A DNA stretch of 55,575 bases from contig NOWV01000163.1 of assembly GCA_003344405.1 (NCBI GenBank), forward strand, positions 124,001-179,575, given 5' to 3'. Position numbers and translations under genes: made by a program. Source of the DNA: Trichoplax sp. H2 (Eukaryota). Within the stretch, counting starts at the first letter, position 1. Each line of letters begins with the position of its first letter. The notes beneath the pieces were generated by a model, which was not told the origin of the DNA, made no database searches, and worked only from the letters and a program-made list of their open reading frames with translations. Shown here in pieces: positions 3,159 through 34,616 of this stretch.

Positions 3159-4406
3159 ATGGCGTCTCAGCGAAATGGTGGTAATCTAAAATGTAGCGAT
3201 AGAAATTGCCCTAATGAGTGCATCTATTTTGACATCATAGAGAAAAACCCTATTATCAGTTTAAATAAAACCATCGAAGGACAAGATTTAGTTTCTGGTA
3301 TTTATATTGGCATTGGGATAATCGGAATTATTTTCAATGCTTTAGTTCTTGTGACTTTGAAAAAGAAGCAGGTATCTAAATCGAAGATTTTCCGTTCTTT
3401 AATGATGAATCTAGCAATTGCTGATTTATTTTCTGCGGCTGCAGTTTCTCTGCTTGGAATTAAAACAATTGCCATAATATTGAGTACCAAAAACATTAAC
3501 TTAATCAATGTACCATACCTTAGCGCCTTGTTCAATTATTCTTTGGAATTATCGAAGGGCACTAATGCTGTTTGTCAAGTCAGTTATATCTTTTTCTTCA
3601 TAACAAATTTTGTATCGACATTAACACTGACCTGCATGGGAATTGAGCGTTATCGTGCATTAATTGTTAATCAAATGTGTAAAGTTAGTGATGAAAGATC
3701 AGAAGCTTGGAAGATCCGTGGTCTGCTAGCTTCTATTTGGATAGTATCCACCGTCGGTTCCATTCCTTTTGCTTGGATGGTCGAGGTTACACCTAGAGTG
3801 TATAATCGATGTTTCTTTGCACATCATCATCCCTGTGGATATTGCCATTACAATTTAATTGTAACTATACTAACCACCTGTATATTTGGCTTAATACCAG
3901 CTGTTATCATGCTCTACTGTTATATTCACCTCGCTAGGTTTCTGCTTAAGTATGGGAAAGAACGTCGGGCATCATTTTCTCATCAGGACTCTGCAATAAT
4001 TAAGCGTTCTGCTCCAAATTCGCCTGCTGCTCAAAAATTGCGTGAAAAACAGGCTGCATTCTTATCCATCATTGTCGCATTCTTATTTTTATTAACCATG
4101 ACTCCATTTATTGCTTATTTGCTATTTATCTCCATTAGTCATTGCAATGGCGATGAAATATTGCACGTATTGAATGTCATGAAATCAAATCTATGGATTG
4201 GCATCGAGGCTGCTCATATGTTTTTCGTTTTACCACCTTTGCTTAATCCTATATGCTATTCTTTTTGTAACCGTAGCTTTCGACTTGCTCTAATGTCTTT
4301 ATGCAAGAAAATGACATTAGAAAATTCGCAATCTTCCACCAAAATCAGTTTATTGAGCTCTGTACGAAGTCATGTTGGATCACGTCGGTCACAGACCGAA
4401 TTATAA
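3159..4406 (+). CDS. Class A (rhodopsin-like) GPCR, cluster gene 1, orphan
   Basis: Seven hydrophobic segments with GIIFN (TM1), NLAIADL (TM2), Cys at the top of TM3 plus ERY, TM4 Trp, ECL2 Cys, CY at the end of TM5 and NPICY (TM7). The ORF track starts at 3090. ATG 3159 (MASQ) follows a pyrimidine tract ending in AG at 3150 and matches paralog N-terminal lengths. Confidence 0.95.
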   Translation: MASQRNGGNLKCSDRNCPNECIYFDIIEKNPIISLNKTIEGQDLVSGIYIGIGIIGIIFNALVLVTLKKKQVSKSKIFRSLMMNLAIADLFSAAAVSLLGIKTIAIILSTKNINLINVPYLSALFNYSLELSKGTNAVCQVSYIFFFITNFVSTLTLTCMGIERYRALIVNQMCKVSDERSEAWKIRGLLASIWIVSTVGSIPFAWMVEVTPRVYNRCFFAHHHPCGYCHYNLIVTILTTCIFGLIPAVIMLYCYIHLARFLLKYGKERRASFSHQDSAIIKRSAPNSPAAQKLREKQAAFLSIIVAFLFLLTMTPFIAYLLFISISHCNGDEILHVLNVMKSNLWIGIEAAHMFFVLPPLLNPICYSFCNRSFRLALMSLCKKMTLENSQSSTKISLLSSVRSHVGSRRSQTEL

Positions 4407-4955
4407 TCTTGTCGATTATTTCTACTGTAAGTCTCGTTAAAGCATTTGGAAGAAATTTAAATAGCTGGATAAATTTAGGTTGCGCATATTCGGCTTCCTT
4501 GACACTTTTGGGTTCTCCTTAAAGTCTTTATTTTTGGCGCGCACCTTTATAATTCAGTTGAGCTAATACTGTATAAATGCTTTCATATGATTTAGAATTT
4601 CCTTTGGTTTGGTGTATTTAGTCTCAGGAATTTCATTATACCAAATCTAGAGAACTTGGCTGATCAATTTATCTATAGCGCAAATTGACATAGCGTATAC
4701 CAAAGATTACGAATTGACGGATTTGAATTTTGGTCAACAGTATAGTTCAAATATTTCATCTAAGCATTTACCTAAAAGACAGTTTTAATTTCTCTTTCAA
4801 AACTTTTAAAATATTCTAAAAATATATGTCGCTTGACTGGAGCTATCGCTATTCTACTTTGAATTGAAATAAGAACTTACTCTATTCACAGCTGGAACAC
4901 GTGTATTGATTTGTCGCTTTAACAGTAAGGGCAATTTTGTATTTGACCATGTGGT

Positions 4956-5401
4956 TGTCACGGTACGAACTACCGTGAAGAAGTAGCTATCTAAATTTGG
5001 TCAATATAATATAGTGATAATATATTACAACTAGTTACTTACAATAGGAATTACTCTAATTATAAATGTGTTAGAGTTAATTAAATACTGTGCTGTAATG
5101 TGCACTGAAGTAATTCTGTGAATGGACGTCCATATTGTACTCCGACTGTGGAAAATTAGTTAGTAGATGTTCTCACCTAAGTATTTGTATAAGATGACTC
5201 ACGATTGTTAGCTGCTGTAGAAGGGTATATAAGCCCATCAGATAGTTGAATAAATTAGTTCTCAATTGTCTAGTTAAGTTTAACGTAGAATCAAAGGCGC
5301 CTAAATTCTTGTGAGATAGTTAAGGGATACTGAATCCCAGAGACTATAGTAATTTAGAGATTTGTTTTACGTTATCTTTGTCACGAAGCTGGTTTATGAC
5401 A
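4956..5401 (+). mobile_element. Solo LTR-like element, family A, copy 1
   Basis: TGTCAC...TGACA ends, flanked by GTGGT/GTGGC (5-bp TSD, 1 mismatch). Internal TATATAA and AATAAA (5249). Aligns to five other segments in the window. Confidence 0.88.
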
Positions 5402-8400
5402 GTGGCAAATATCCTAAATTGTGTTTTCATTTAATTGATATGTGGTTATTAATTTAATGCTTAACTGGGTTTGATTTAAATCTACATTAAATGTAAAATT
5501 AACAGAGTTTTCAATAATTACGGACTATCGTGATGATTTATAATAGGGATACCGGTATATAATCTGACATAAATATATTTGATGTCCGAGTAATTCACTA
5601 ACATTAATATTTGATTCATTGGTACAAGCTGAAGATCTTGCTTGAAATATTTATCCCGTACAATAAAATAGTTAAATTTACATTTCCGGTTTAAGTTATA
5701 CGTACGTATGATTCGTTATGATTCGAATTATTTTAATCATTCAATTATGTTATGAAAGATAAAATTTTAATTGCGTATATCTCACCAATTTAAATTATCG
5801 ATTGTTATTAATTCGCTATAATTACTTGAACCAAATCTACGTTTGAATAAATACGAGGTATTGTACTTCGAAGTGTTTGTGTTTATCAATTATTTACAAA
5901 AAAGCATGTTGCAGAGCCATTGCTAACTAACTTGTACAATAATTCTAAGGTCAATACCCTTTCAAATGCATATCAATTTTTTAATTTATATTATTTGGAT
6001 TTATGAACACCCTTACAGCAGGTATGGAATAAGGTTTGATAATTATTCCTGCCAAGAATGATTCTATTTATTAGTTTAAACAGCTAGAAATTAAACGTTT
6101 ATAAACTTTGGCATGATAAAGCAAAGACCTGCTACGATTATATTTCAATTCAATTTGACTTTAAAAAATTCTTTCCAAAGACCTCGAGCTAATGAGTAAT
6201 CCACGATAATAAGGTAAATGGAAGTCAATAGAAAGATTGAAAAAAAAAACTTGGTAAAATTACAGGACTACATTGATTTAAAACAATTACAGAAATAGTG
6301 TTGTAATAAGTACTAATTTCAACCCTACAGTATCCAGTTACATAACTCAGTAAGCCCTTAACGTAGCGTTTAAAAATGTTTATTAATTAAAATCCTCTAG
6401 CTGCATATTGAAATAGTAGAATTTAAGATAAGGCAACTACGCACATTGGCAGCTCAAGGCTATCGACCTACCTCCCATCCAAAGGAGTTGGTCTTTTATA
6501 CATTCCTAAAAAGGATTATTGACTAACATGTTATCAAATCCCCGTTTCCATCAATTTAAGTAAAATCCTACTTAACCTTTCCCGTACTGTTCTTAACTCT
6601 ACTTAACATAAGTAAAAAATAGTGCGAGGGAGAATAGTTTTAATGCTTATTAAGGTAACGATAGATGATAGCTGAATAGACTAAATTTGAGGTCAATAGG
6701 TTGCAAACCTTAGACATCAAAAACTCGTCCATGACAAGAATGTTTCTTACATCATTTTACTCTTGAAAGTGAAATATCTTCTTAGGGGACAGTCATAAAA
6801 AGAACAGAACTTATAGCTAAGTTTGATTTGCTCTTGCAAAGTGGATAGTTTTAATCTTTCTGATGTAATCTAAATCCAACGGAATCGAAAAAATGAAATA
6901 GTCTTGGGAATTTCCATTTTATCGTCATGACGTTGTTTCTATTGATGGATTGAACAATTTCACGTTGATCGTAAAAATCTAAAGCAACTTGTAGTAAAGA
7001 TAATTCTTAAGGACCTAGAGTAAATCAGATTAATTGGATTTGAAACCGGAAGTAAGATTTATTACAATAAAATCAATCGTAACTGTAATCTTAATAAACT
7101 ATAACATGAAGAACTCTCGATCCAGTGTACCCTTTAAAAAACTACTGATGACCATTGGTTGTTATATTTAGCCTAATTCTATTTCAATTTATTTTCCGTA
7201 ATCACTGAATAGAGAATTGAATGGGCAATTAGGTATAAAGCAGAAGTTAAATACGCTCCAGCAGAGTGAATAGGTCTGTAAAATATGCATTGATCCTAAA
7301 CTATTCACGGTCTAGCCATTCTCTTATGTATCGTATTCTAGTTACGCTAATATGATCAATTCATTCCAAGATAATCAATTATTCTTATTGTGAGGCCTAT
7401 TTTTGAAGGTTATGACAAATTTCTTAATAATAAATACGCTTAATGAGTTTATTAGTTGTACCTTATTAAAACAAAACAATAATCTAGTCTTATTGTTCAA
7501 TTTCAGAGAAATCAAACCATTTATCTATTGAGCTTAAAAGAACCATTACTTCAACGTAGTCATTACATTAGTCAGTTATCAGCAAGCCTACCAAGGTTAA
7601 TGTCTATTAGAGACAAAAATTAAATTCAAAGAATTACAACAAAACTCCATCTTGGGAAAAAGGTGAGCTTAATTTGAGTGTTAAATTGGTAATAAATGGA
7701 TATAATTTTGTCGCAATCATTATACGGTTGGGATAACGATCATGGTTATAGTCTAAGTTAAATAATATCCTAAAAAATAGGCAAAGACATAGGCAGCATT
7801 ATTAATAGATTTCAAGATTACAAATAGGCCTTTATTCCCCTGAAAGACATCATTTCCTTCTCTGGATGCTATTTAATTATATATTATCAAGCAAATTTTG
7901 TTGAAATTAAGTTGTTATTGCTTCTTTACTAGACTATACCAGCTGGGAAATAGCAGGGCTACAACTAAAAGCCTTTTTTGTTTGCAAATAATTGAGGCTT
8001 CCTCAATGCTTTTACTTTACCAGTTTAGGTAGTGATTTCCGTTAATATCATGACTTATGTTAGCTGAAATTAAATTTGCTCAAATTTGTCCGTCTTGAAT
8101 AAACTAATTCAAGAATTATGTTTAGAAGTTATACATAAAAAAGGTGATTGTAAGATTTCATATCATCATAAGTTTAGGAAAATTGGATCACTTTATATAA
8201 TAATGTAAGGATTCTTGGTTACGGTCGTAATAAACCACTAGATCTTTCCTAACATTTACTCTAGCTGGATAATTTACCTATACTTCGATAAATTACTCGG
8301 TTTTAATTGGCAATTGGAAGTAAATTAATCACTTAACGTATCATTTGACTTTATCTTTAGTCAGTTTGAAAGTATGAACGACAAGTTATAAAAGGCTTTC

Positions 8401-10350
8401 AACTAGCGATGCTTTTAAATCCAAACAATCAAATTTTCATAAGTTTTATTATATTTCTCTTCATCATCCGTTGGAATGATCTAATTCGGTTCTACATATA
8501 CTGTGTGTCGTTTTCTAAAGTCCGACTTATTTTAGTTGCTTTTAACATTACTGCATGTATTAGAATTCATATTACTAAGAGAAGTTTACCACCTTTACCA
8601 CATGAATAAAAAGTCTGATAATATAGTGAATAAAAATGACTTTTAAACGATTATTGGCCGATGCTTAATCGATGATTAAATAATTAAATGATTTGAGAAA
8701 ACATGGGTAAAATATGAAGCAGAACGTGTGGTTTTGATATCCGTCTGGTAACAACGTTATTTACGCTTTCTTGATGCCTGGATGAGTCTAATTGCAATCA
8801 CCGTGTAATCTTTACAATCTTAATTTTAATTTTTGCTGCTGTTATTGGAGATTCGTCAGAATTTAAAATATCAAAGACTTAAAGAAACGATCGCATACAC
8901 CAAAAATTCTGAATTAGAGCAATTGGCTAGTGCCGTTATCATTTGATAATGTGCATACTTTCTACTAATTGAGTAGATTGATTGTTTTAGTTTCTTTTGA
9001 TTCTTGCTCTAAGCATTCGAAGGCCTCAACCACGGCCGTATATCTCACTTTGATATGCCAAAGTAGTGAAAGCATTAAAATACGCCATGATCACAAATAC
9101 AATATGCCGTGCTGAGTAATGTTGATGATCTGCGGATCGTTAGGATCGTTAAATTGAAAAGATTCTATGTACTCGTTATCTCACTCTGAGAGATTTTCGA
9201 TATCGAATTCTTGATAGAGGATGCTAAAAAGCTGTTGTCTTACAATGTTAACCGTGATAGTAATCCGAAATTTTAAGGGAAACTCTACAAAATTTGAATT
9301 TTTAAACTAAAACAAGTGTCTTTTAACTTTCTGCTTGCTAGCACACCGATAATCGACTTCCTGTTCTAGAATTACAAGAATGTAGTCCTCTTCCTATTTT
9401 GTGCTTAATCTCGATTCATTCACTCTATCTCCACTTAATCCAATTATAAGCTCGCATATTAAGCTGTATACTATTTTATTTGCACCATTACTATTACGAT
9501 GCATTTCATCTTCTAACGAGGGATTTACTTAAGTAATTTATGTCTAAATAACAGTAACCCGCTATATATTGTTACACAGACCGTTGATGATCAAAGTTAT
9601 GACATCATCCATTCATGATGGAGGTTCTGTTATTCTGAGCAGCGACAAATATTAAATCATGTGATGGAATCTTTTTATTACGCTAATTATTTCGTGCTTA
9701 CTAGAATACAGTATAACCTATTATGACTAATAAATACCACGATAAAGAAAGGCGGTACTGAAGGTAGTATCAATTGCATGTTAAATAGATTATCATTTCA
9801 TGATACGAATGTAACCTAATCTGTTTAACCTCAGGAAAGGATTAACAAAATCTTACAGCCACCATTTACCTATCAGTTTCGCTAATTTTGCATTCATATT
9901 ATAATTTTACAAACAAATTATGTACATAATCTTATTTTCTGAAGCTCGATTTACAAAGTGTATTTACTTTCCAGTGTCTATGCGTACCTGCTGCAGTTTA
10001 CACTTTAGTAAAATTGGATGAAATTTTTAAATTAGTAAAGGATGGAATGATTGACAATGCATGTCTACTGCATGGCTTATCGTAGTACAGCAAAGTAGGG
10101 CGTATGATTTTTAAGTAATACAATTCTTGATATTTTCCTTAATCTCGTAAAGTAATATTAGAATTGATGAATTGATTCATAATTATCATTGACTTGAAAG
10201 AATATGTGATATATGAACTTTATAGATGAGGACATATACGAAATTCGTTTTAATATCTTGGGTACATTGCTAGTACAATAGCATTAAAAGTTCCTTTTCA
10301 TTTTTACTATCTTAGTCTAGATTCTTAATTTAGCAATTTCAAATTGAACC

Positions 10351-11496
10351 ATGGCGGATGTGTGTAACAGGAATTGCTCATTTTATGGTCCCTATTTAAA
10401 TTCGAAAAATTTTAACAAAAATCAAATTGTCAAAGGCCAAGATGTTATTGCATACACCTATATTGGCATTGGCATACTTGGATGTCTGTTAAATATTATT
10501 GTCCTCTTTACTTTGTTGAAATTCCAACTGACAAAATCCAATGTATTTCGAATGTTGCTAAGGAATCTTGCCCTAGCTGATTTTTTATCATCAATTGGCG
10601 TTATATTAGTTGGTGCTAAAACATTAATAATTATAGACGTTATATCAAACCTTAAAAGCCTATCTGATAGCTTGGATGAAAAAATACTGGCTAGTTTAAC
10701 AAATATGTGCAGAGCAAGTTATGTTATTTTTTTCATCACGAATTTCTTGTCTGGTTTAACGATAACCGTTATGGCAGTAGAACGTTATCTTGTAATTATA
10801 GTTCGCAAATTTCGAGGGCTTTACCAAAATGATTTAAAACCATGGAAACTATATGTGTTGTTGGCAGGCATTTGGGCCACTGCAATCGCAGGATCCATAC
10901 CATACTTTATAAGCTTTGAAATTACAGATAGAGTGAACAATCGATGTTTTTTCTCTATTGATACTTCCATGGTTAGCTGTATCTATAATATTATACTTAC
11001 TATATCTACTACAAGTGTACTTTGTGTAGCACCTTCCTTTGTTATGGTATTTTGTTATTTCAAGATTGCTCGATATCTATTTAGCCATCGCCGGCCCGAT
11101 ACTGAAGTAAATAGACGTAGAAATGGCCAAAATTTTACCGCTGATAAACAAGCCGGCTTAATATCAATTTTGATTGCCATTTTCTTTATCCTTAGTATGA
11201 CACCTTTTATGGCTTATTTAATTTTTGTTTCGATAAATTACTGTAACGCAGACGAAGTAATAGTCTATTGGATCAATTCCAAATCTTACTTTTGGATTAC
11301 AGCTCACGAAATAGCGCACTATCTATTTATTCTGCCGCCGATCATTAATCCTCTTTGCTATTCATTTAGTAGTACTCAATTTCGAAGAGCAATAAATTTC
11401 TCATGCAAGGATAAATTAAAAAAGACACGTATGGCCATTAATTTATCATTACCATCATTTAGACGTGAATCAAGAACACTGAGTACCTCATTTTAG
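10351..11496 (+). CDS. Class A GPCR, cluster gene 2 (same subfamily as gene 1)
   Basis: GCLLN, NLALADF, ERY, NRCFF, CNADE and NPLCY motifs; 7 TM segments; accATGG start context. Confidence 0.96.
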   Translation: MADVCNRNCSFYGPYLNSKNFNKNQIVKGQDVIAYTYIGIGILGCLLNIIVLFTLLKFQLTKSNVFRMLLRNLALADFLSSIGVILVGAKTLIIIDVISNLKSLSDSLDEKILASLTNMCRASYVIFFITNFLSGLTITVMAVERYLVIIVRKFRGLYQNDLKPWKLYVLLAGIWATAIAGSIPYFISFEITDRVNNRCFFSIDTSMVSCIYNIILTISTTSVLCVAPSFVMVFCYFKIARYLFSHRRPDTEVNRRRNGQNFTADKQAGLISILIAIFFILSMTPFMAYLIFVSINYCNADEVIVYWINSKSYFWITAHEIAHYLFILPPIINPLCYSFSSTQFRRAINFSCKDKLKKTRMAINLSLPSFRRESRTLSTSF

Positions 11497-14400
11497 TTTT
11501 ACACTTAAATTCTCATAAACTATCTTTACTATAAGCATGGATGAAATTAAAGAAGAATAGCAAAAATTAGTATATACGGTAAAGTAAATGTTAATTTTAC
11601 TTAATTAACGCGTTTATATTAAATTATACTTCTAAATGCTAAATCGTTTTGTCCCCAATTATTTCTGTGCTTGTTAATTACAGGTATGGAAGTTGATCTT
11701 ACGAAAATTTTATGTATTAAAGTAGAAAATACAGCACTTTTATTATAAATCCTTGCGATTAAGCATAATACCTCTATCAGTAAGATGATAACTTTTGAAC
11801 AGCAGTAATGGATACAAATATGCAACTGCATCTTATAGTTAGTAATTTGATATGGTTAAGGCTCGACCGGAGCCTCTGGAAGTCAAGCAGAGGTAAAACT
11901 TCTTGTAGCCTGTATTATTATCGGACTTTAAATCGATGATACGTATTTTCTGATAAGAAACCAAAATGTGAAGGTTGTGCTGTTCTATAGCATACGACCT
12001 AGTATTTATTTTATTTTTCTAATTAATCTATACAATAAAACTCGTATTGCATTCTTTCCTTGAAATCCTTTGCGATTTTTGCTTTGATATTTTGGTAATT
12101 AAAAACTGTCACATTTTAATACATTTCTTCTTCATTGCAAGTATTAGGTTGAGATAATTACAAGAATCTAAAATTTGTAGAATATATTCATAAAGCCATT
12201 TTAATTTGTTAATTGTCAACTCTTTGAGAAAATGCGAAAAGAACGACATATCTCTAACTTGTTATTTACGTCTAGAACTTCGGATGCAAAAGTTATGAAC
12301 TTTACTAATAAGCTTTTAAATTACGTATCATACCTCTATTTTTCATCCTACTTAATTAAAATTGATTTTATGCCATTTCTCTAAATTATAAAATAGTGGA
12401 GTCTAGCAACATTAATACACAAATATACAAATATACTAATGGACTAATGGACTAAAGTAATTATGATCTTTAAATTTTGAATCGTCATTACTCTTATCGT
12501 CCGTTACATTTCAAATCTACTTCACGTAGTTTCACCTTAATTATAAAATTGTACGGTAATGCATTATTATCATATTAGCAGCTGTAGTTACCTTCGTGTA
12601 GAAATACAGAATTCGAGCTTAGAATTTATTGACAGATATAGTGATTTACTTGAGTATAAGACTCAGATGAAGCTAGCCTTTTAATCATCTTCGCCCAAAA
12701 TATATTTGATTACAAACGTTTCACTATCTCAAATATCTATCTATTCCATGTTTTACTCTGATCTTGATCTTTTGGGTTATCCCGTTACAATGAAAATTTA
12801 GTTTGCATGATAGATAAGACGATTTACGATACCTATCTGCCCTTTTCTAAACGATCCTTAGTTATAGATAAGACCTTATGTGTTAGCTATAACTTTAGTA
12901 AACTTCTTATTATAGTTTTAACAGTGGAAAATTATTAGGTGATAGTCCGCCTTGTCATAAATCATCGTTAGTCCAGAGCGAGTAATTCAATTTCTTTCTA
13001 TTTGCGGATCAACCTAAAGATACATAAAAATATTACGGTTTCATGTCTGCAAATCTGAATTTAAGGTAATAATATATCTTGCAATAAATTATCGTCTACC
13101 CTTAGCAAGTAATTGAATTTCTTCCTAGTAACACAACTGGATCGGCCTAAAGATTTATAGAAATATTGCAATTCATCTCCCATTCCAACTTACTTTTTGA
13201 AAACATGATACATTATCCCAATTGGGCAGCTAATTCTGTTCGGCAACAGTTTGTATGGAAATTAAGGATAACTTACGTATTCTTATAAGATCAGAAACAT
13301 TTTAACAGTCATCTATTGTTCCTAATCCACTAGTATGCAATTTAGTAAACATCGAGTTCATGTAGGCCTATCGAAGCTTTTTCATATATCATTGCAACTA
13401 ATAGTAGACTGTAATTGTCAATTTGCTTAGCAACATAAGCATAATCATTCCGCGACGGTAGTATTATATAGACTAATTAAGTGTGCAATTGTTCATTTAT
13501 AAAGGATTTATTGATCATCGATCGTTAGATGATTGTTTATTTTCCTTAGTCGAAAGTATATTGATTTACTGTTGATAACAGACCGATTATCATTTGGATT
13601 AATATAATAACTAGTTGGCATTGACAGCTTCATATTGGCTGATTTAGCATTCCATCAGAAAACTTGCAGATGTTAAAACTCCATCAAAATTAAACATTTT
13701 GGACGTACAGTAAGTTTTGATAGCCTAATTTCATTCTATGTAAAGATTTATTATATGTTACCTTAATCACTCGAAATTCTGTACATAGTGCTGGAAAAAT
13801 TTTTGTTTAATCGTGCTATTGAAATTTTTATTCGATAAAGTACGAATTTTATGGTAGTATTTGAATTCTTTACTCTTTATTCAAATAACGATAATCAAAA
13901 TTCGAGTGACGATCAAGTGTGCAAAAAAGTTGATTAATTAGTGCCTAAACTGGATTTAATTTTAAATGATAGCTTTAGTGTTTGAGTAAGATGCAATCAT
14001 CAAGTGTTCCTACACCCTCTATCGATGATTGTTTACCTTAGCAAATATAGACTTGGCAGATTTATCTATTCCATGAATTGAGTTCCGCGACGGTATAATA
14101 TATGTCATATAAATACGAACATAACTGATTGTTTAGTAAGAGTGTTCTCAGTTATACTGAAAGAACTAGTTTAAATCAACGATTTAAGTGTTATAAGTGC
14201 AATGATATTGCTCTAGTGGCTAGTTATTGGCCACTAGCCCAAAGTTCCAGTTTAAATTTGAAGTTAAAGAAAGTTTTTATCAATCTTGTTTAAGTTCATT
14301 TGCATCATCAAACAATTTTTGCTACTTGTTTGATATTGGATTTATGTGTACTAGGCTAATGGAGGATAAAGATGATTACTTGAATGCTTGTGCTAAACTT

Positions 14401-16099
14401 TAAAACCTTTTTGATATCCAAAGCTATCTAATCTGGTTCCTGTTTTGTAATTTTATTTTTACCCGGCTATTACGACCGTTGAAACTAGCGCTTCGCTGTT
14501 TTATTATCTCTTCAGTGTTCATTCCTATTAGAAGTATCGATTTCTTTAGCCTTAATTGCTTCACTGTACACTTTTCGCTTTAGATTACATTATATGCAGT
14601 GATTTCATTTCTTCTTCAAATATAAACAATTGAGCAATAAAACCTATTTCTCAAACGGCATGGGTGAGTAATTAATAGCCAAGAAAGAATGAGAGAATAA
14701 AGAATTTCAAAGTGTATCCCATATTGAGTCGAGCTACTAGTAGTAACAATCTATTCTGGATGCAATTTCTTCATAATGGTCCATCAGTAACTATAAAGGC
14801 TATCTATACATCTTTTACAGCGACTACGAAATCTATGCCTAAAATCTAGTGCTCATACTGAAGACTTTTTAAATCGTATTTGTTACAATATTAAAAACTT
14901 CCTACGCCCAAAAATTTAATACAGTTACTAACATTTTCTTTGTCCAAAGATATTTCCTACGATATCTTGTAATAAGTATGACTGATATGGAGTTGTTATG
15001 TTAAATTGAAATACTCATATAGTCATTTTTATTTTCTAATCAATTCTTCAATAGTATCCGTTATGATGGTCATATTGAAAACCGCTGCAATTATATCCCC
15101 TAGCGTTATCAAGTAGTAGTAATGTGAGTTTGGGAATTACCGTATACTCGTGCTAGTTTTCGATTCTATGAGAGGGGAAGGATATCAAACTATAAGCAAT
15201 GATATTATCAAATGAAGGAAAGCCGTTTTATAAAACTCTATTCTTTGTTTAAAATGCATTATGATAGCTATCATCATAACTGCAGTACTTAATCTTTAGC
15301 TTTTATAATGCGATAATGGCATTATTTTGAGAACTATTTTAGTTTTGGATGCTATAGTTGGGAAGGATTTCTCAATATGAATGATGCATAGTCTTAAATA
15401 GTTATGCTTCTAAAATCTTTCAATTGGAAGTTTAATATTGCAATAGCTTGAACTATGAAGACTGAATATGGCAAACGACTATTTTACTAGTATCATTAAT
15501 AGAGTATACAGCAGCTGCTAAATCGTTCTTATTAATTAAAACTGTACCTACCCTCGTTATACACTTCGAGATTCATTTTAAGGCAATTTTTATACCATGA
15601 CCGGCTAGAAGTGTTTGCAGTATCTTCATCAAGGATTTAGATTTTTTCCATCAGCCGGAAATGTAGAGTTAAGCATAACGTGTTTTAATTGCCTTAATGT
15701 ATTGTCTACGAAAACAATCAATTATTATTAACATATCAATGCCATTTGATGTTGATATAGTAACTTAGTCCGTTGTTATCAATCACGGCTACTTGCATGA
15801 CGTTTTGAATCTGGAATTGTCGTAGTAGAGCAAAGTCTAGGAGCGAGTAATGTATTGACTGTGGTTTTTGATGGTTTAAAAGTATTATCCTCTTCATGAA
15901 GCAATTAGTAGATGGATAAGGAAGGAGACTTTTATGCGGGTAGAACCGAGCAGGTTTGAGTATCGAATTAGCAAAGTGGTTACTACTCTAATTGAAAGTT
16001 GAATTTCTACACAGCGGCGTTTCATCTTGGGTAGACTTATATTAAACGTTTCCAATGAGGTTAAACTTAGCATAAATCCACTTGATTATGTAATAGTAC

Positions 16100-16662
16100 T
16101 GTAAAGTAACTTAGTGTTGTGATTGTAGACTATTAGCCATGTTTAGTTAAATGTATGGCAGTGTCTTTTTCTATATTTATTTTATGATATATTTAGTAGT
16201 CTATAATTATAGACTGGAAGGATACACCCTGTGCTAGTATGCAGATGACTATATACAGTAAGGTGTTGAGCTACTAATAAGGTTAGAGGTAGAAATAGAA
16301 TTGTAAATGATATATTAGGATATGCTTAGTTCATTTTATTTTGAGTGGTAGGAATAATGCCAATGAAAATACTGTAATCATTTCTATATTGGATCAATGA
16401 TGATTCGCTGTAAAATACTGTGACTAATAATATGCTGAACAGGTGTAAAATATGGTAGAATGCTTCTATGCTGATTGTAGCTGCGCAGACCATACAGAGA
16501 ATAAAAGCAGTAGATATTAGATTATCTGATTGCTCATTCTAGAAGTCTTTCTGTAGCTATATTCGACTAAAGTATAGCTGTGTGTAGCTAGTCCTTGTAT
16601 TGGATCTAATAAAGCTTTAATTTTCTACAAATTTGGAATATTCGTGATCGGATTTCATCGCA
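16100..16662 (+). mobile_element. Solo LTR-like element, family B, diverged copy
   Basis: TGTAAAGTAAC...ATCGCA ends with AGTAC/AGTAT flanks. Colinear with 45984-46534 but has many substitutions. Confidence 0.82.
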
Positions 16663-17133: not shown

Positions 17134-18258
17134 ATGACCATGGCGAACAGTCCTACTTGTAATGCTCAATGTGTTTATTATGGAAATGACAGCCTTAACT
17201 CCAGTCAAATTGATCTAACAGCCATTGTAGCTGGTCAAGATGTTATCTCTAGTATCTATATATGTATCGGCGTTATTGGAACTTTATTGAATGGCTTAGT
17301 GGTATATATTCTTGTCAATAAGAAAATTTTAAGATCGCGTATTCTTCGACACTTGATGATTAATCTGGCAGTGGCGGATTTATGCTCAGCTCTAGCCGTT
17401 ATATTACTTGGTACTAAAACCTTCTATATAATTAATTTCAGCAGTAGCACTAGAATGAATCAAGAAGTCAATCTTAGCTTATTTGGGCAAGAACTCAATG
17501 GAATATGCAAGTCTAGCTATATTATATTTTTTATGACTAATTTTGTTTCAACTTTAAATTTAACAATCATTGCAATAGATCGCTATCGAACATTTGTCGT
17601 CAATAATATGGTCTCTATAAGATCGAAGCAAGTGAGTCTGGGTAAAATACGCTTATTAATAGCCTGCTTTTGGGTGGTTTCTATTGGTTTTGCCTTTCCT
17701 TTCATCGAAACTTTCGAGCTAACACCTAGAGTGAATAATCGTTGTCTGTTTGCACACTCTTATAAGCATTGCACGTATAATATTGTCCTAATGGCTATAG
17801 TTTTAAGTTTATTTTGTGCTTTACCGGCCGTTATCATGATATTTTGCTACTTTAACATCATTCTATTTCTTCGTAAGCATGCGACAGGCACCAAGAACTT
17901 ACTAAATAATAATAAGGAGAATCAAGCACGAGATCTTAATCACACCAAACTATTCGCCGTTATCACTTTTGCTTTTACGATCACTGTAACACCATTTATG
18001 GGATATTTAATCTACGTTTCTTGGACCAACTGTAATGCCGATGAGATTTTGCAGTATCTGTTAATAAAATCTGCTTACGGATGGATAGCATTTCATGAAG
18101 TTGCTCACTTCCTTTTTATTTTACCTCCAATTATAAATCCATTATGCTACACATTTAGTTCTCGTTCTTACCGCAAAGCAATCTTGAATGGATGCCAATG
18201 CAATAAAGCCACAGCTATTGGTCCTTCAACTCAAACAAACTCCACTTCAAATCGTTAG
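17134..18258 (+). CDS. Class A GPCR, cluster gene 3 (same subfamily)
   Basis: GTLLN, NLAVADL, DRY, NRCLF, CNADE and NPLCY motifs. The start may be ATG 17140 (accATGG). Confidence 0.96.
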   Translation: MTMANSPTCNAQCVYYGNDSLNSSQIDLTAIVAGQDVISSIYICIGVIGTLLNGLVVYILVNKKILRSRILRHLMINLAVADLCSALAVILLGTKTFYIINFSSSTRMNQEVNLSLFGQELNGICKSSYIIFFMTNFVSTLNLTIIAIDRYRTFVVNNMVSIRSKQVSLGKIRLLIACFWVVSIGFAFPFIETFELTPRVNNRCLFAHSYKHCTYNIVLMAIVLSLFCALPAVIMIFCYFNIILFLRKHATGTKNLLNNNKENQARDLNHTKLFAVITFAFTITVTPFMGYLIYVSWTNCNADEILQYLLIKSAYGWIAFHEVAHFLFILPPIINPLCYTFSSRSYRKAILNGCQCNKATAIGPSTQTNSTSNR

Positions 18259-23603: not shown

Positions 23604-23688
23604 CCGACTGGTTCCGGAATCCGAAAAATTCGGTTCTTATAAAGATCACAGTAATCGCTTATCAAAAAAATTTATATGACTATTACGA

Positions 23689-24325: not shown

Positions 24326-24345
24326 NNNNNNNNNNNNNNNNNNNN

Positions 24346-26172: not shown

Positions 26173-27357
26173 ATGGATCGGTATGCTAATGTATCCAAGG
26201 ATATATGCCATGTAGAATGTCCTCTGCATAAATTAATGGGAAACATTTCTGATGGTGAAGAATTCTTCCGTCGAGGTCAATTGGCTATTGCTGGCATATA
26301 CATTTTCATAGGCATCTTGGGACTGATTTTAAATACTGTTACTATTGTGATTTACGCTATAAAATTTCGGACGAAAATTACGACTTTTCATACTTTAATA
26401 ATGAATCTTGCATTATCAGATACTCTATGCTCTATAGCTATTATTTTGCTTGGAGCTAAGACTATTCTCATTGATATGAGTTCGCGTTCTCAGCCTATTG
26501 ATACTTTGAAGGCAGCACTGTCTGCAAATAACGCGATTTGCAAGTTCAGTTACGTTATTTTCTATATGACTAACTCCGTATCTACGCTAACTATAACTGG
26601 AATGGCCGTTGTACGATATATGTCTTTACTTGCAAGAAATATTACTGAATATCAGACATACAACGCAAAGCCAAGGAGAAGAATTTTCGTTCTGATTATA
26701 ATATGGGCCTTAGCCATTAGCAGTGCAATTCCAGTTTTCAGAATTGTCGAACTAACTCCTGGAGTTAAAGTTCGCTGCTTTTTCGCAAATTATCATGATG
26801 AAGGCTGCTTTTATAATTTGGGCTACATTATTTCGATTACAATACTTTTATGCATTATTCCTATGGTAACACTACTGTACTGCTATATTTATTTAGCTAA
26901 ATTTTTATTCCGACAGCAAACAGAAAGGAGGGAATCTTTCAGTGAAGCGAATCTAAACTCGACTGCTTTTCGTACTCGTAGTATTAAGGAAAGACGAGCA
27001 GCAATATTAGTAATCAGTGTTACAATTATATTTATTTCGACTTCGATTCCTTTTATAGTTTATCAGTGGATCATTTCTGTTAGTCAATGTAATGCCGATG
27101 AAATATTAATTTTCTGGATGTATAAGAGTTCATCGAACTGGATATTTTATGAAATTGCTCATTTGTTATTTATATTGCCTCCTATATTGAATCCTATATG
27201 CTATACATGCTTTAATAGTAATTTTCACAACGCTTGCCGATCAGTACTAAAGAATAGAAGGCTTACCAGAGAATCTCAGTCATCGACTAAATCAAGCTTG
27301 TTGAACATTTTAGACAGCCTTATTTTCTATGCGGAGAAATTAAAAAGAGCAAAATAA
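26173..27357 (+). CDS. Class A GPCR, cluster gene 4 (same subfamily; VRY in place of DRY)
   Basis: GLILN, NLALSDT, VRY, VRCFF, CNADE and NPICY motifs; gccATGG start context. Confidence 0.96.
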   Translation: MDRYANVSKDICHVECPLHKLMGNISDGEEFFRRGQLAIAGIYIFIGILGLILNTVTIVIYAIKFRTKITTFHTLIMNLALSDTLCSIAIILLGAKTILIDMSSRSQPIDTLKAALSANNAICKFSYVIFYMTNSVSTLTITGMAVVRYMSLLARNITEYQTYNAKPRRRIFVLIIIWALAISSAIPVFRIVELTPGVKVRCFFANYHDEGCFYNLGYIISITILLCIIPMVTLLYCYIYLAKFLFRQQTERRESFSEANLNSTAFRTRSIKERRAAILVISVTIIFISTSIPFIVYQWIISVSQCNADEILIFWMYKSSSNWIFYEIAHLLFILPPILNPICYTCFNSNFHNACRSVLKNRRLTRESQSSTKSSLLNILDSLIFYAEKLKRAK

Positions 27358-27498
27358 CCTAAATAGAGATTAATATGGTTTATAAAAGCATTACTGTAAT
27401 TTCCGCTAATCGTGAATTTATTAAGCTAATTACCATAATTAATAAATTTTTAATTTTCCTTATAAAAAAGCTGTAGTCGTAGTTATGTTGTTATTAGT

Positions 27499-27800
27499 TC
27501 TTGTAAAAGCTATTCAAGCTATTTAGAATTAAAGTGAATGAAATATTCAGGGTGATATTTTACAAGATTAAGATATTGAACGAATATTACCCGAAAGTTA
27601 TAATTTTTAAAGCGCTGTGATTTGGGCATTAATGATTACTTTTGAATAATATAATAAATATAATTATTCAATTTATTTACCAAAGCATTCATAATTGATT
27701 TCATGTCAATAACTAATAGATAATGAGAGGCATAAAACAAGGTTGCTTGGGTTACTAATATTGTTTGGTTTATTACAAATTATGTTATGAACATATGCAT
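27499..27800 (+). repeat. Diverged ~300-bp non-coding repeat, copy 2 (partner 19338-19640)
   Basis: Colinear similarity to 19338-19640. Boundaries approximate. Confidence 0.7.
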
Positions 27801-30800: not shown

Positions 30801-33049
30801 TTTCATAGAGAGCCCTTTAATGCGGTAGATTTCTCTTACATTAAACAATAAAAGAGATGATGGTTATAAATTTTGCCACACTCGGTTTGCTGTAATCATG
30901 TAAATTGCTTGCCGATGAACGTCATTTAAGTCGCTAAAAGTAATATCAATTCTTAGTATAGTTATGCAAATTGCTAATATGTTATTGAAATTGCTTTATT
31001 TACAAGAAATATATTAATTGAGGAAGTTTAGGATTTGGAAACAAATGTTTATCGATTAGCGGTCATTTACCTTATAATGGTTCTAAAGTTATCAGTTCGG
31101 CTTCACTACTGCTTGATCAGTATTTGTGTAATGCTTATCTCTAATCAGATATTGCAGTTTGTATGGGGTAATCGTTAATTACTAGAGTAAAAGTTGGTCA
31201 TCTTTAACCCAAATTTAAAAATACATCTTCGTAGGCCCACGCTATTTTAAGATTTGAGGCTTAAATAGACCATAAACTCATAATATTAATTTCTATAAAT
31301 AAAAATTTAGTTTTATAGTTAAAAAGCTGCCCGAATAGATATTGTCATAAATTTTCAAAATTAAATAAACGTTCAAATACTTTAAAGATTCATAATATTA
31401 AAGTTACTGTTGATTCTGATTAACGAACTGAAAAATATGAAATTCTAGAAATGTTCTTGCGTCTTTTCAGTATTCGATGGGATGATGTCTAGTAATTATA
31501 ACATGCTAAACATATTTAGATAATAATAATATTTAACAATCACTGCAAGGTAGTTCATAAGCGGTATCGATATTTTCGTATATGGGATTAGAACTAGTAT
31601 ATTCTTTAAATGTGTAACCAAGAATGGTGCAAAAAATAGATCGATAATTTTAATACCAATCTGTATTTCTATCTTTTTCGTGATGGAAATTCTCAATTTG
31701 GAAATTAATTTAATTTCATCACGGAACTATTTCTAGGATTATAGAGGAAAACTTTGTATAAATAGATAATTCGATTTGTATTACAATACTGTTAAAGGTA
31801 TCTTGATACTAGGTAGTGAATCACTATAACATAACCCTTTTTTACTACTTAATTTGCTATGAAAGAAATTTTACGACGCCGTTGAACTTTACCGTTTATA
31901 TAATGCTATGCTACGTTTTGAGGTGTCATTCTCGTGATCGCAAAAAAAACTAATATTCAACCTGACGTCGCAGCGAATTAATAAACTGCCATATGTTTCA
32001 AAGTAAACAATGAAATTTAACGCAATCAAATATTTGCGAGCTAAAATTTTTTGTTGCTTTTTTGAACTTTAAATAAAATTGCTAAGAAACAAGGTCTATT
32101 TATCTACTTGTTTCCTTATGTTTATCCTGCTATTTGAAACTATACTCGCATACCACACATACGTTATATTGGAATGCAACCGATCACTAAATTTCAAATT
32201 TAGTAGGAAATTAGAACTTTATTAGATCTTTGTACAAAGATAATTTATAGACAGCTCTACTCTACTTGAATATAACTACAAGAAAGATTTTCTAGACTGA
32301 AGAACTGAATCTGAAGTTGCTTACTTAAATAATCTATAGCAATAGTACCTACAGTCTGCATAACATTATTCTAACATATTTTAAAAATTATCTGATTACT
32401 GTTAGTGACAAAATTTTATAGCAGATCATCTATAATCGAACATCATAACTGCTACAGTAATTTCGTCGACATTATTTTTACCAGACAAAAACATGATAAG
32501 CTAAGCATATCCTAACGTATTATATTAACATTGCAAATAGTCTACCAACCAATGCTAAGTTACGTTACATGTATAGCGAATATATTGCTTCCAAAGCTGG
32601 AGCACCAGTAATACATTTTGTACCTAAAGCAACGGTTACGATGATTAATGTTATGTTCAATTAATTTCCATATTAGGGATTATTACTGGTTATGCTCACC
32701 ATTTTAGGGGTAACTACTGTCGAGAGATTATGTTTTAAAACATATTTACTGTTGTCGTGGCTTTATTAACTTACCTAACAATTATAGAGTATCGATGTAT
32801 CAAATATACTATTATAAAAAGGAGATATAATAGAAAAAAGAGGAATTTTCGGCTTATGCTAAGTTTGAAGGAGTCTAAATTGCTCGTAAGCAATTTGTTA
32901 TTTATTGTTACTCGTTGCTGACGTAAAAGTAAAGGAGATTTCTTTTAAGTTTAACTTGCAGTTGTGACAGTTAATATCTAGTCAAATCACAAAACTTCCA
33001 GCTATAGCCAGATATTATAGCCAGGAAATTAAAATTTTATACCTTAACG

Positions 33050-33074
33050 GGCTATTATATAGTATATAATAGCC
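33050..33074. repeat. Perfect 12-bp inverted repeat with a 1-nt spacer
   Basis: GGCTATTATATA-G-TATATAATAGCC. Confidence 0.9.
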
Positions 33075-33446
33075 TAGTATAATTTGTCTATGATTATATT
33101 GATGATTAGCTAGTCGCAATACTAGTATACCGTCCAACAGCTGTCATAGCTATATTAAGGTGGAAGAAATTGTTAATATTCGCTTTATAAAGCGATTGGG
33201 TATTTCTAAAATGATTGACTACAAAAAGATTAACTTAAGCATCTTTAAAGTTAATAAAAAGAGTTTATAGTAATTTAGATAGATAAATTTAATGGATAAG
33301 CTCATACTAGTTAGTTTTTGGCTTGTAAAAAGACTTCAGTATTTCTTTTTAATCGTAGCAATAAGTAAGAATTTTTTTCTTAGTATGATTCAACTTGACT
33401 TTAAATTACTGTAATATTTAGATAATATCATTAAAAGCTGGCTAGG

Positions 33447-34616
33447 ATGGTATCTAATAATGGTAGCAATCTTTCGCATAGCGATTGCATGTTATCAGAA
33501 GTATTATCCGCTAATCCCAAGTTGGATTTAAAGATTGCTACTGCTGGACAGAAACCTATTGCTGCAATTTTTATCTTGATTGGACTTCTTGGAATAGCCT
33601 TTAATATATCAGTAATCATAACTTTAAGGAAGAAGCCGTTATCTGATCGAGTTCGAGAAAATCTCTCCAATTTATCCTCATTTAACACTTTGCTAACTAA
33701 TCTAGCTGTAGCAGATCTATTAGCGGCCATTGCTGTTACGCTAATTGGCGTAAAGACTATTTATATTATAGTCGCAGCTGAGGATTCATATAACGAAAAC
33801 AAGAAAGCTCCATCTAATATTAAAGATCTTATCACTGGTTCTAATGGAATCTGTAAGATAAGCTATCTCTTCTTTTTTCTAACAAACTTCGTGTCCATCC
33901 TAACGGCAACTAGCATGGCTGTTGGAAGTTATCGTGGCATCGTCATAGGCAGTATGCGTCGAGCGGGAAGTACCAGATTAAGCCGTAAAAAAATGGCTTT
34001 ACTTTTGACAGTAATATGGTGCACGGCTATAGCCAGTTCCATACCTACATATTATATAGTCGAAGTGACACCGGCAGTATATAATCGCTGTTTCTTTACA
34101 CATCATTTGCCTAATGGATTTTCTACTTTTAATCTTGCGTTTACTATATTTATAACGGCTATCTTTTACTTCACACCGGCTTTCGTTATGATGTTCTGTT
34201 ACATTCGCATTGATAGAGAGTTAAAGAAACATTCACAACTTAAATTACAAACACTAGCTACAACCAGTTCTACAAGGTTTAGCAACGGTGCCGAGCAGCA
34301 GAAATATCAAAATTCCAATAAAAAGGCCCAGAAGCCAGCTGTTGTGTTATCTATTATCGTAGCAGCAATTTTCTTAATTACAATGTTGCCGTTTATGGTT
34401 TATTTGTGGGTTATAGCTATTAGTAAATGTAATGCGGATGAAATTTTACAAATAGTTTTGGTAGATCGATCCCATTTGTGGATTTTATTCGAGGTTGCTC
34501 ATATTCTTTATGTTATGCCACCGCTGGTTAACCCGATATGCTATTCCTTTTGCATTCCAAGTTTTCAACGAAAATTTAAGGAAATGTGTGGAGAATTTAA
34601 CGAGGAAGATTCTTGA
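33447..34616 (+). CDS. Class A GPCR, cluster gene 5 (same subfamily; GSY in place of DRY)
   Basis: GIAFN, NLAVADL, NRCFF, CNADE and NPICY motifs; intact 389-aa ORF. Confidence 0.95.
   Translation: MVSNNGSNLSHSDCMLSEVLSANPKLDLKIATAGQKPIAAIFILIGLLGIAFNISVIITLRKKPLSDRVRENLSNLSSFNTLLTNLAVADLLAAIAVTLIGVKTIYIIVAAEDSYNENKKAPSNIKDLITGSNGICKISYLFFFLTNFVSILTATSMAVGSYRGIVIGSMRRAGSTRLSRKKMALLLTVIWCTAIASSIPTYYIVEVTPAVYNRCFFTHHLPNGFSTFNLAFTIFITAIFYFTPAFVMMFCYIRIDRELKKHSQLKLQTLATTSSTRFSNGAEQQKYQNSNKKAQKPAVVLSIIVAAIFLITMLPFMVYLWVIAISKCNADEILQIVLVDRSHLWILFEVAHILYVMPPLVNPICYSFCIPSFQRKFKEMCGEFNEEDS

What the first reader, a model, noticed from the sequence alone, without database searches (positions are those of the whole stretch)
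3159..34616. Co-varying cysteines predict an extra disulfide cage tying the N-terminus to ECL2 and ECL3 in GPCRs 1-5
Seen: beyond the standard TM3-ECL2 pair, the N-terminal Cys count equals the spare ECL2 plus ECL3 Cys count in every paralog. Gene 1 is 3 = 2+1 (KCSDRNCPNEC; PCGYC; HCNGDE). Genes 2-4 are 2 = 1+1 (CxxxC; CxYN; CNADE). Gene 5 is 1 = 0+1: it lacks both the first Cys of CxxxC (SHSDC) and the CxYN Cys (STFN). Established: an N-terminus-ECL3 disulfide occurs in chemokine, angiotensin and P2Y receptors. Inference: the second Cys of CxxxC bonds ECL3 and the first bonds the ECL2/TM5 junction, giving a doubly (gene 1, triply) stapled lid I do not recognise from characterised receptors.
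Basis: partly seen in the sequence, partly recalled or inferred. Interest (0 to 1): 0.72.

Follow-up and report, generated by a model that had tools for sequence, protein, structure and literature searches.

The report
Placozoan GPCRs with stapled N-terminal lid
Five neighbouring receptor genes of a Trichoplax-like animal gain and lose outward-facing cysteines in matched pairs, which points to extra bonds tying the receptor's N-terminus to two of its outer loops, an arrangement already solved in the human niacin and lactate receptors.

Summary
Genes 1-5 are single-exon-CDS class A GPCRs of a placozoan (gene 3 is 99% identical to TRIADDRAFT_62237). Their cysteine counts are exactly as described. 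Six further distinct relatives from unnamed assemblies extend the rule: the extra extracellular cysteines sum to an even number in 11 of 11 distinct family members.

The closest relatives of gene 3 have lost the first CxxxC cysteine and the ECL2/TM5 cysteine (position 5.32) together. This loss is independent of the gene 5 lineage (AU test p 2.5e-6). One gene 4 relative keeps CxxxC but has its ECL2 cysteine at a different site.

So the inferred pairing (Cys1 to 5.32, Cys2 to ECL3) has co-variation support. There are only two independent contrasts, and SG-SG distances could not be measured because no model coordinates are released.

The novelty claim fails. Human HCAR1, HCAR2 and HCAR3 cryo-EM structures show this same three-disulfide lid (N-terminus to ECL2/5.33, N-terminus to ECL3/7.25, 3.25 to 45.50). 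A 2026 survey lists doubly stapled N-termini in 10 of 289 human receptors.

The family is unrelated to HCARs, so this is convergence. Only gene 1's possible third staple could be a new variant. Interest is modest.

The parts
3159..4406 (+). Gene 1, class A GPCR, 415 aa (near-identical to TRIADDRAFT_62236). Extra Cys codons: C12 3192-3194, C17 3207-3209, C21 3219-3221 (N-terminus); C226 3834-3836 (5.29) and C229 3843-3845 (5.32); C329 4143-4145 (6.63). Canonical pair: C139 3573-3575 and C218 3810-3812.
   Evidence: start supported
10351..11496 (+). Gene 2, class A GPCR, 381 aa. Extra Cys: C5 10363-10365, C9 10375-10377 (CxxxC); C210 10978-10980 (5.32); C298 11242-11244 (6.63). Canonical pair: C120 and C199.
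   Evidence: in-frame stop at 10345
17134..18258 (+). Gene 3, class A GPCR, 374 aa (99% identical to TRIADDRAFT_62237). Extra Cys: C9 17158-17160, C13 17170-17172; C213 17770-17772 (5.32); C300 18031-18033 (6.63). Canonical pair: C125 and C204.
26173..27357 (+). Gene 4, class A GPCR, 394 aa. Extra Cys: C12 26206-26208, C16 26218-26220; C212 26806-26808 (5.32); C306 27088-27090 (6.63). Canonical pair: C123 and C202.
33447..34616 (+). Gene 5, class A GPCR, 389 aa (cluster of TRIADDRAFT_62238). Only C14 33486-33488 in the N-terminus and C328 34428-34430 (6.63). Ser stands at the Cys1-equivalent (S10, 33474-33476) and at 5.32 (S226, 34122-34124). Canonical pair: C136 and C215.
3149..3158 (+). Start of the coding exon of gene 1. 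Contigs of RNA-type runs break here behind an AG. Two alternative sets of upstream letters both carry in-frame stops, so the ATG at 3090 lies outside these transcripts.
   Evidence: (table 7: X3 and X19 at 3149, X3 at 3150)

Best explanation
Genes 1-5 are a placozoan-specific tandem family of peptide-receptor-like class A GPCRs. Their short N-terminus is covalently tied over the ligand entrance. All members keep the canonical C3.25-C45.50 bond. All also keep a bond between the last N-terminal Cys (second Cys of CxxxC) and an invariant Cys at the top of TM6 (6.63, motif C-N-[A/G]-D-E). Most members add a second staple, from the first Cys of CxxxC to a Cys at the ECL2/TM5 junction (5.32). The gene 1 lineage added a third N-terminal Cys together with a Cys at 5.29, probably a further bond. 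The result is a lid of N-terminus plus ECL2 held in place over the pocket, as in the human HCAR receptors, and reached independently. What is shown: the cysteines, their positions, their joint gain and loss, and the known precedent. What is inferred: that the bonds form, and their connectivity.
For: (1) Parity: the extra extracellular Cys (N-terminus + spare ECL2 + ECL3) sum to 6,6,4,4,4,2,2,4,4,2,2. That is even in 11 of 11 distinct family members, with no Cys in ECL1. (2) Co-variation: P0151/P0155 and P0152 are the nearest relatives of gene 3 (52-53% identity; clade support 99/98). They sit inside a clade whose other members all have 2=1+1, and they lack both Cys1 and C5.32 while keeping Cys2 and C6.63. 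(3) Holding all five 1=0+1 rows as one clade is rejected (lnL difference 67.2, AU p 2.5e-6). So there are at least two separate joint changes of this pair; 2 of 2 independent contrasts go the same way. (4) The gene 1 lineage (gene 1, P0004/P0154) gained an N-terminal Cys and C5.29 together. (5) P0009, the gene 4 relative, keeps CxxxC and lacks C5.32, but has a Cys at 45.50+5, so parity is kept by relocation. (6) Rough null: random placement of 4 or 8 changes on the family tree leaves an even number on every branch with p 0.013 or 0.002. (7) Background: spare ECL2 Cys occur in only 3 of 130 distant GPCR relatives, and the full pattern in 0 of 130. In that set N-terminal Cys and ECL3 Cys are associated (10 of 29 against 8 of 101, Fisher p 0.0009; not corrected for phylogeny). 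(8) Precedent, with the same order of Cys: HCAR2 C18-C183(5.33), C19-C266(7.25), C100-C177. HCAR1 uses a different ECL2 site than HCAR2 and HCAR3, which parallels P0009 against gene 4. (9) AF2 models are confident (gene 1 pLDDT 86.3, pTM 0.89; gene 3 88.7, 0.90). The Cys-bearing N-terminal blocks score 70-94 (gene 1, residues 11-30) and 77-79 (gene 3, residues 11-30), so they are not modelled as a free tail.
Against: No SG-SG distance or contact could be read, because structure prediction returns no coordinates and none appear in /data. The bonds and their connectivity therefore rest on counts and co-variation alone. There are only two independent contrasts for the Cys1/ECL2 pair; the sign test gives p 0.5 and cannot reach 0.05 with so few. 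The gene 5/P0006 position at the base of the family is unresolved (71/10), so that event may be one gain, one loss or two losses. P0009 shows that Cys1 can persist without C5.32, which requires a different partner. The ECL3 Cys lies at 6.63, not at 7.25 as in the solved examples, so the geometry is not directly transferable. Residues 1-10 of gene 3, which hold C9, have a mean pLDDT of only 62. The relatives come from unnamed assemblies, and I could not inspect their upstream DNA, so their N-termini are as predicted by others.
Confidence: 0.62

Rival explanations
1. Other connectivity. In the four-Cys members the CxxxC forms a small intra-N-terminal loop, and C5.32 bonds directly to C6.63 across the tops of TM5 and TM6. 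In the two-Cys members the remaining N-terminal Cys bonds to C6.63.
For: It gives the same parity in 11 of 11 members. 5.32 and 6.63 sit on neighbouring helices. Nothing measured here fixes the connectivity.
Against: It needs a re-pairing of C6.63 each time the pair is lost, at least twice. P0009 moved its ECL2 Cys to 45.50+5, further from TM6. In the solved HCAR lids both N-terminal Cys go to loops.
Confidence: 0.13
2. The counts are a by-product of descent plus chance. Cys2-C6.63 may be a real bond, but Cys1 and C5.32 are not bonded to each other and were lost together by coincidence.
For: There are only 2 independent contrasts (sign test p 0.5). The branch to the P0151/P0152 clade is long (0.38 changes per site), so two changes on it are not rare for average sites.
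Against: Random placement leaves an even number of changes on every branch with p about 0.013 (4 changes) to 0.002 (8 changes). No member with an odd total was seen, 0 of 11. Spare ECL2 Cys are rare in relatives, 3 of 130. Unpaired extracellular Cys are generally disfavoured (established knowledge).
Confidence: 0.1
3. Some of the extra cysteines are functional thiols rather than structural bonds. They might bind metal together with the His-rich ECL2 (gene 1 has AHHHPCGYCHY), form a redox-active CxxC, or make an intermolecular bond to a Cys-containing peptide ligand or to a second receptor.
For: Gene 1 and P0004 have a C-G-Y-C motif flanked by His. CxxxC and CxxC motifs bind metals in other proteins (general knowledge).
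Against: The His run is not conserved in genes 2 and 4. Strict pairwise gain and loss fits intramolecular pairs better. No metal-site or ligand evidence was obtained.
Confidence: 0.08
4. Swapped pairing: the first Cys of CxxxC bonds to ECL3 and the second to 5.32.
For: Geometry was not measured, so this is not excluded on structural grounds.
Against: Wherever the ECL2 Cys is absent, the first Cys is the one missing and the second is kept with C6.63. This holds in 5 of 5 distinct 1=0+1 members. HCAR2 has the same order: first to TM5, second to the ECL3 side.
Confidence: 0.04

Closest known systems
Human hydroxycarboxylic acid receptors HCAR2 (GPR109A), HCAR3 and HCAR1: three-disulfide N-terminus/ECL2 lid
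   Same: The canonical 3.25-45.50 bond plus two N-terminal cysteines. The first goes to the tail of ECL2/top of TM5 (5.33 in HCAR2; 5.32 here) and the second to the ECL3 side. Paralogs differ in which ECL2 site is used (HCAR1 against HCAR2/3; here P0009 against gene 4). Passages read.
   Different: There is no specific sequence kinship: HCARs are not among the best 60 of 261 PDB profile hits. The N-terminal Cys are adjacent (CC) in HCARs and CxxxC here. The ECL3-side Cys is at 7.25 in HCARs and at 6.63 (end of TM6) here. The bonds here are inferred, not observed.
N-terminus to ECL3/TM7 (7.25) disulfide of chemokine, angiotensin, apelin, P2Y and proton-sensing receptors (GPR4, GPR68)
   Same: A single N-terminal Cys anchored to the ECL3 region, as in gene 5, P0006, P0151 and P0152. 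By sequence profile the family is nearest to this peptide-receptor neighbourhood (GALR1, CX3CR1, AT2R, apelin receptor). GPR4 C9-C258(7.25). AGTR1 and 51 receptors with an N-terminus to TM7 bond.
   Different: The partner Cys sits at the TM6 end of ECL3 (6.63), inside an invariant CN[A/G]DE motif, rather than at 7.25. Most members add a second staple.
TAAR-type double N-terminal staples (N-terminus to ECL1 and to ECL2) and the OR51E2 N-terminus to ECL2 bond
   Same: Two N-terminal cysteines are each bonded to a loop. The survey authors conclude that such bonds arose many times independently.
   Different: The partner loops differ (ECL1+ECL2), and no ECL1 Cys exists in this family.

Membership tests
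Rhodopsin-family (class A) GPCR, Pfam 7tm_1 | Match to PF00001 above the curated cut-off | tested here: met
   7 of 7 window proteins score 61.9-105.5 bits against a cut-off of 30.5.
Rhodopsin-family (class A) GPCR, Pfam 7tm_1 | Seven-helix bundle fold | tested here: met
   AF2 models of genes 1 and 3 have pTM 0.89 and 0.90. Foldseek's top PDB hits are all class A receptors with probability 1.00.
Rhodopsin-family (class A) GPCR, Pfam 7tm_1 | Canonical C3.25-C45.50 cysteines, D2.50, NPxxY | tested here: met
   C3.25, C45.50 and P7.50 are present in 11 of 11 members. The LAxAD and NP[IL]CY motifs are visible in the alignment.
Rhodopsin-family (class A) GPCR, Pfam 7tm_1 | E/DRY and CWxP micro-switches | tested here: inconclusive
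   ERY or DRY in genes 1-3, VRY in gene 4, GSY in gene 5 (no R3.50). The TM6 motif reads S-M-T-P-F in gene 2 (gene 1 T-M-T-P-F, gene 3 V-T-P-F), with no Trp at 6.48 in genes 1-5. The motif names are recalled.
HCAR family (hydroxycarboxylic acid receptors) | Specific sequence relatedness to HCAR1-3 | tested here: not met
   A profile of the family against PDB sequences gives GALR1, CX3CR1, AT2R and CysLT1 as best hits. No HCAR is among the 60 listed of 261, and none is among the 14 hits of the single-sequence search.
HCAR family (hydroxycarboxylic acid receptors) | Two N-terminal Cys plus a Cys at the ECL2 tail/5.33 plus a Cys at 7.25 | tested here: inconclusive
   Two N-terminal Cys and C5.32 are present in genes 1-4 (gene 1 has three N-terminal Cys). 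The ECL3-side Cys is at 6.63, not 7.25. So the family works like an HCAR lid but is not a member.
Receptors with an N-terminus to ECL3 disulfide (chemokine/angiotensin/P2Y type) | One N-terminal Cys and one ECL3/TM7 Cys that are bonded | not testable with these tools
   Both cysteines are present in 11 of 11 members. Bond formation needs coordinates or chemistry, and no coordinates are released.

The most novel reading that the evidence does not exclude
The gene 1 lineage (gene 1 and P0004/P0154) ties its N-terminus down with three separate disulfides (C21-C6.63, C17-C5.32, C12-C5.29) on top of the canonical bond. The categories of the survey of 289 human class A receptors list no receptor with more than two N-terminal partners, so this connectivity would be new. 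The array as a whole would then be a natural graded series of one, two and three staples, with a reversal in the gene 3 orthologs, for testing how lid rigidity tunes ligand access.
Probability: 0.3. Interest if true: 0.45.

Novelty: new member of a known kind. Interest (0 to 1): 0.3.

Why it matters
It adds a pre-bilaterian, independently evolved example of the HCAR-type stapled N-terminus/ECL2 lid. It also supplies naturally occurring one-, two- and possibly three-staple versions in close paralogs and orthologs. That makes a compact system for asking what such staples do for folding, surface expression and ligand access in orphan placozoan receptors. It does not reveal a new principle: doubly stapled N-termini are already solved and surveyed in human receptors.

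Tried and rejected
- Whole-genome search for further paralogs: no genome is held for this window.
- Earlier notes of this scan: nothing found by place, relatives or words.
- Word-index homolog searches returned few rows: 2, 5 and 4 proteins. The profile search scored only the 8000 candidates sharing most words and missed known members, so absence there means little.
- The exhaustive representative search shows a sharp family edge: 9 proteins at E<=1e-30, then the next at 5e-14.
- Pseudogene or extra family copies in the window: of 126 tblastn alignments, none lies outside the seven genes.
- The ESM Atlas look-alikes were generic class A clusters and did not help.
- Literature on these genes: a search for the three TRIADDRAFT identifiers found 0 papers. 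The placozoan GPCR preprint 10.1101/2025.04.18.649542 holds none of the identifiers nor 'disulfide', 'cysteine' or 'tandem' in its main text (its supplements are closed and might list the genes).
- The GnRH receptor N-terminus to ECL2 bond (Cys14-Cys200) is recalled only. My search for it returned no relevant paper, so it is not used as evidence.
- Read laying: the parts without cover in X3, X19 and X20 are not taken as evidence of silence. The intron joint 7660->10314 rests on one contig with 23 letters on the shorter side and is only a weak hint.
Full report
WHAT IS THERE. The window is AT-rich (GC about 0.28-0.33). It carries seven ORFs of 342-438 aa on the + strand, and all seven match Pfam 7tm_1 above the curated cut-off. 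Gene 3 is 99% identical to the protein a source names TRIADDRAFT_62237 of Trichoplax adhaerens. Gene 1 falls in the 90% cluster of TRIADDRAFT_62236 and gene 5 in that of TRIADDRAFT_62238. The window is therefore from a placozoan very close to T. adhaerens. Genes 1-5 form one family. Genes 6 (37859-38953) and 7 (51076-52104) are distant class A receptors that lack the extra cysteines.

- Gene 1 has C12/C17/C21 in the N-terminus, two spare ECL2 Cys (5.29 and 5.32) and one ECL3 Cys.
- Genes 2-4 have CxxxC, one Cys at 5.32 and one ECL3 Cys.
- Gene 5 has one N-terminal Cys, none at 5.32 and one ECL3 Cys, with Ser at both vacated positions.
- The ECL3 Cys is always at 6.63, the first residue of an invariant C-N-[A/G]-D-E motif.
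- No member has a Cys in ECL1.

THE N-TERMINI ARE SOUND. Genes 2-5 have an in-frame stop 0-4 codons before the ATG. Gene 1 has an upstream in-frame ATG at 3090 that would add a Cys. However, contigs of RNA-type runs from two studies break at an AG acceptor at 3149/3150, and their upstream letters carry in-frame stops. The start at 3159 therefore stands. Contigs of two runs on record as RNA cover the coding parts of genes 1-3, which is consistent with transcription. The tool warns that contigs do not prove it.

HOW BIG THE FAMILY IS. HMMER with gene 3 against 1.84 billion representatives gave 207 hits at E<=0.001 but only 9 at E<=1e-30; the next best is 5e-14. The nine are the five window genes plus P0002, P0004, P0005 (a fragment), P0006 and P0009. 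Cluster look-ups and a profile search added P0151/P0155, P0152 (the full-length form of P0005), P0153 and P0154. All come from unnamed assemblies. By similarity (43-58% identity to the window genes) and tree position they look like one-to-one counterparts of genes 1-5 in other placozoan lineages; this is an inference. That makes 11 distinct sequences.

- P0004/P0154 (gene 1-like) keep 3=2+1.
- P0002/P0153 keep 2=1+1.
- P0006 (gene 5-like) keeps 1=0+1.
- P0151/P0155 and P0152 are the closest relatives of gene 3. They have only the second N-terminal Cys (..VQC..) and Gln at 5.32, and they keep C6.63. So they are 1=0+1.
- P0009 (gene 4-like) keeps CxxxC and has Ile at 5.32, but carries a Cys five residues after C45.50.
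- The sum of extra extracellular Cys is even in 11 of 11 members.

THE TREE. I used IQ-TREE on 20 rows; P0003 and P0156 were left out as near-duplicates of genes 3 and 1. The family is monophyletic (99/98). The clade (gene 3,(P0152,(P0151,P0155))) has 99/98 support and sits inside a 94/98 clade with gene 2 and P0002/P0153, which are all 2=1+1. Gene 5 and P0006 sit unresolved at the base. Forcing all five 1=0+1 rows into one clade costs 67.2 log-likelihood units (AU p 2.5e-6). The joint absence of Cys1 and C5.32 therefore arose at least twice.

HOW STRONG THIS IS. The formal test gives 2 of 2 independent contrasts in the same direction, which cannot reach significance (p 0.5). I also ran a rough null of my own: changes are placed on branches in proportion to branch length, and I ask how often every branch carries an even number. 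It gives p 0.013 for the four Cys1/ECL2 changes and 0.002 for all eight inferred changes. Among 130 distant GPCR relatives, spare ECL2 Cys occur in 3 of 130 and the full pattern in 0 of 130. In that set N-terminal and ECL3 Cys go together (10 of 29 against 8 of 101, Fisher p 0.0009). These are rough region counts, not corrected for phylogeny.

STRUCTURE. AF2 on alignments of 141 sequences (11 family members plus 130 distant hits) gave confident bundles: gene 1 pLDDT 86.3 and pTM 0.89; gene 3 88.7 and 0.90. The Cys-bearing N-terminal blocks have mean pLDDT 70-94 (gene 1, residues 11-30) and 62-79 (gene 3, residues 1-30). That is more than a free tail usually gets, but it is no proof of a bond. 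No coordinates are released. Foldseek and sequence profiles place the family among peptide-type class A receptors (GALR1, NTSR1, CXCR2/3, CX3CR1, AT2R, apelin, SSTR2, NPY2R) with no close relative.

MECHANISM. The most economical reading has four parts.
- Cys2-C6.63 is a constant N-terminus to ECL3 staple.
- Cys1-C5.32 is an optional second staple to the ECL2/TM5 junction.
- Gene 1's C12 and C5.29 form a further pair gained together.
- P0009 re-sited the ECL2 partner.
The staples would hold the short N-terminus over ECL2 as a lid on the pocket. The cysteines and their joint changes are shown. The bonds and their connectivity are inferred. The rivals are an intra-N-terminal CxxxC loop plus a 5.32-6.63 bridge, coincidence, functional thiols or a metal site, and swapped pairing; they are weighed in their own sections.

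COMPARISON WITH WHAT IS KNOWN.
- In cryo-EM structures of human HCAR2 the authors describe C18(N-term)-C183(5.33), C19(N-term)-C266(7.25) and C100(3.25)-C177(45.50). These form an N-terminus/ECL2 lid, and Cys mutants lose signalling (passages read).
- HCAR1 and HCAR3 also have three bonds. HCAR1 uses a Cys at the head of ECL2 instead of 5.33 (passages), which is a direct parallel to P0009 against gene 4.
- A 2026 JBC survey covered 289 human class A non-olfactory receptors (sections 4, 6 and 7 read). It lists N-terminal bonds in 86 AF2 models: 51 to TM7, 14 to ECL2, 7 to ECL1+ECL2 (TAARs), 2 to TM5+TM7 and 1 to ECL2+TM7. It reports agreement between AF2 and experiment in 30 of 39 cases, and concludes that such bonds arose many times independently.
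- GPR4 and GPR68 have an N-terminus to 7.25 bond.

DIFFERENCES FROM HCARs. There is no specific kinship with HCARs: none is among the 60 listed of 261 PDB profile hits. The spacing is CxxxC rather than CC. The ECL3-side Cys is at 6.63 rather than 7.25. This is therefore a convergent new member of a known kind. The survey's categories hold no receptor with three N-terminal partners, so gene 1's possible triple staple is the only part that could be a new variant, and it is untested.

IN PRINT. Nothing was found on these genes. Searches gave only general placozoan and cnidarian GPCR papers, which I saw as listings only.

VERDICT. The pairing inference is supported by co-variation but not structurally tested. 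The novelty claim is not supported. Interest is modest (0.3).

Noticed in passing
window 33447-34616 (gene 5), residues around 150: Gene 5 has G-S-Y where the family has E/D-R-Y, so the conserved Arg3.50 is missing. Its relative P0006 keeps ERY. Gene 4 has VRY and P0009 has M-R-C. Gene 5 may signal atypically or act as a decoy.
   Followed up: no
genes 1-5, TM6 (e.g. gene 2 residues about 283-289): The TM6 motif reads S-M-T-P-F in gene 2 (gene 1 T-M-T-P-F, gene 3 V-T-P-F). No member has the Trp of the usual CWxP toggle at 6.48.
   Followed up: no
gene 3 residues 69-159 (window about 17338-17610); gene 1 residues 76-170: AF2 models a very long TM2 (residues 69-106 in gene 3). TM3 starts 14 residues before C3.25 (from residue 111), and ECL1 is 25-35 residues in the alignment. 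This suggests a helical TM2-TM3 extension above the membrane.
   Followed up: no
genes 1-5, ECL3 (e.g. gene 3 residues 300-311, window 18031-18066): An invariant C-N-[A/G]-D-E motif sits at the end of TM6 and is followed by a short predicted helix inside ECL3. C, N, D and E are invariant in the 10-sequence alignment.
   Followed up: no
window 3149-3150 and 7660-10314: The coding sequences are single exons, but the genes seem to have 5'-UTR introns. Gene 1 has an AG acceptor at 3149/3150 with two alternative sets of upstream letters (two studies). Gene 2 has a GT..AG joint 7660->10314, seen in one contig with 23 letters on the short side, so it is weak.
   Followed up: partly
window 4884-5404 and 15825-16345: Summed contig depth in the DNA-like run X1 jumps from about 100 to about 91,000 and about 8,800 in these bins. 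There are smaller spikes in the other runs and many loose ends at their borders. These look like high-copy repeats or mobile elements between the genes.
   Followed up: no
window 13011-15550, - strand: A contig of X3 joins 13011 to 15550 with CT..AC ends, which is GT..AG on the minus strand. This suggests a spliced minus-strand transcript between genes 2 and 3. No ORF of 110 aa or more lies there.
   Followed up: no
window 10351-11496 and 26173-27357: The 90% clusters of genes 2 and 4 hold only the window's own protein, whereas genes 1, 3 and 5 have named T. adhaerens counterparts (62236, 62237, 62238). Genes 2 and 4 may be unannotated in that reference gene set.
   Followed up: no
window 37859-38953 (gene 6) C-terminus: Gene 6 ends helix 8 with a run of five cysteines (NCCCCCE), a likely multiple palmitoylation site. 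Genes 6 and 7 lack all the extra extracellular Cys.
   Followed up: no
window 24326-24345, 42357-42376, 45316-45335: Three runs of 20 N mark assembly gaps in intergenic DNA.
   Followed up: no
gene 1 residues 219-231 (window about 3813-3851): Gene 1 has a His-rich ECL2 around the spare cysteines (F-F-A-H-H-H-P-C-G-Y-C-H-Y). It is partly shared by P0004 and by the Cys-less relatives (A-H-H-Y-L-Y-Q). It could be a metal- or pH-sensitive site.
   Followed up: no
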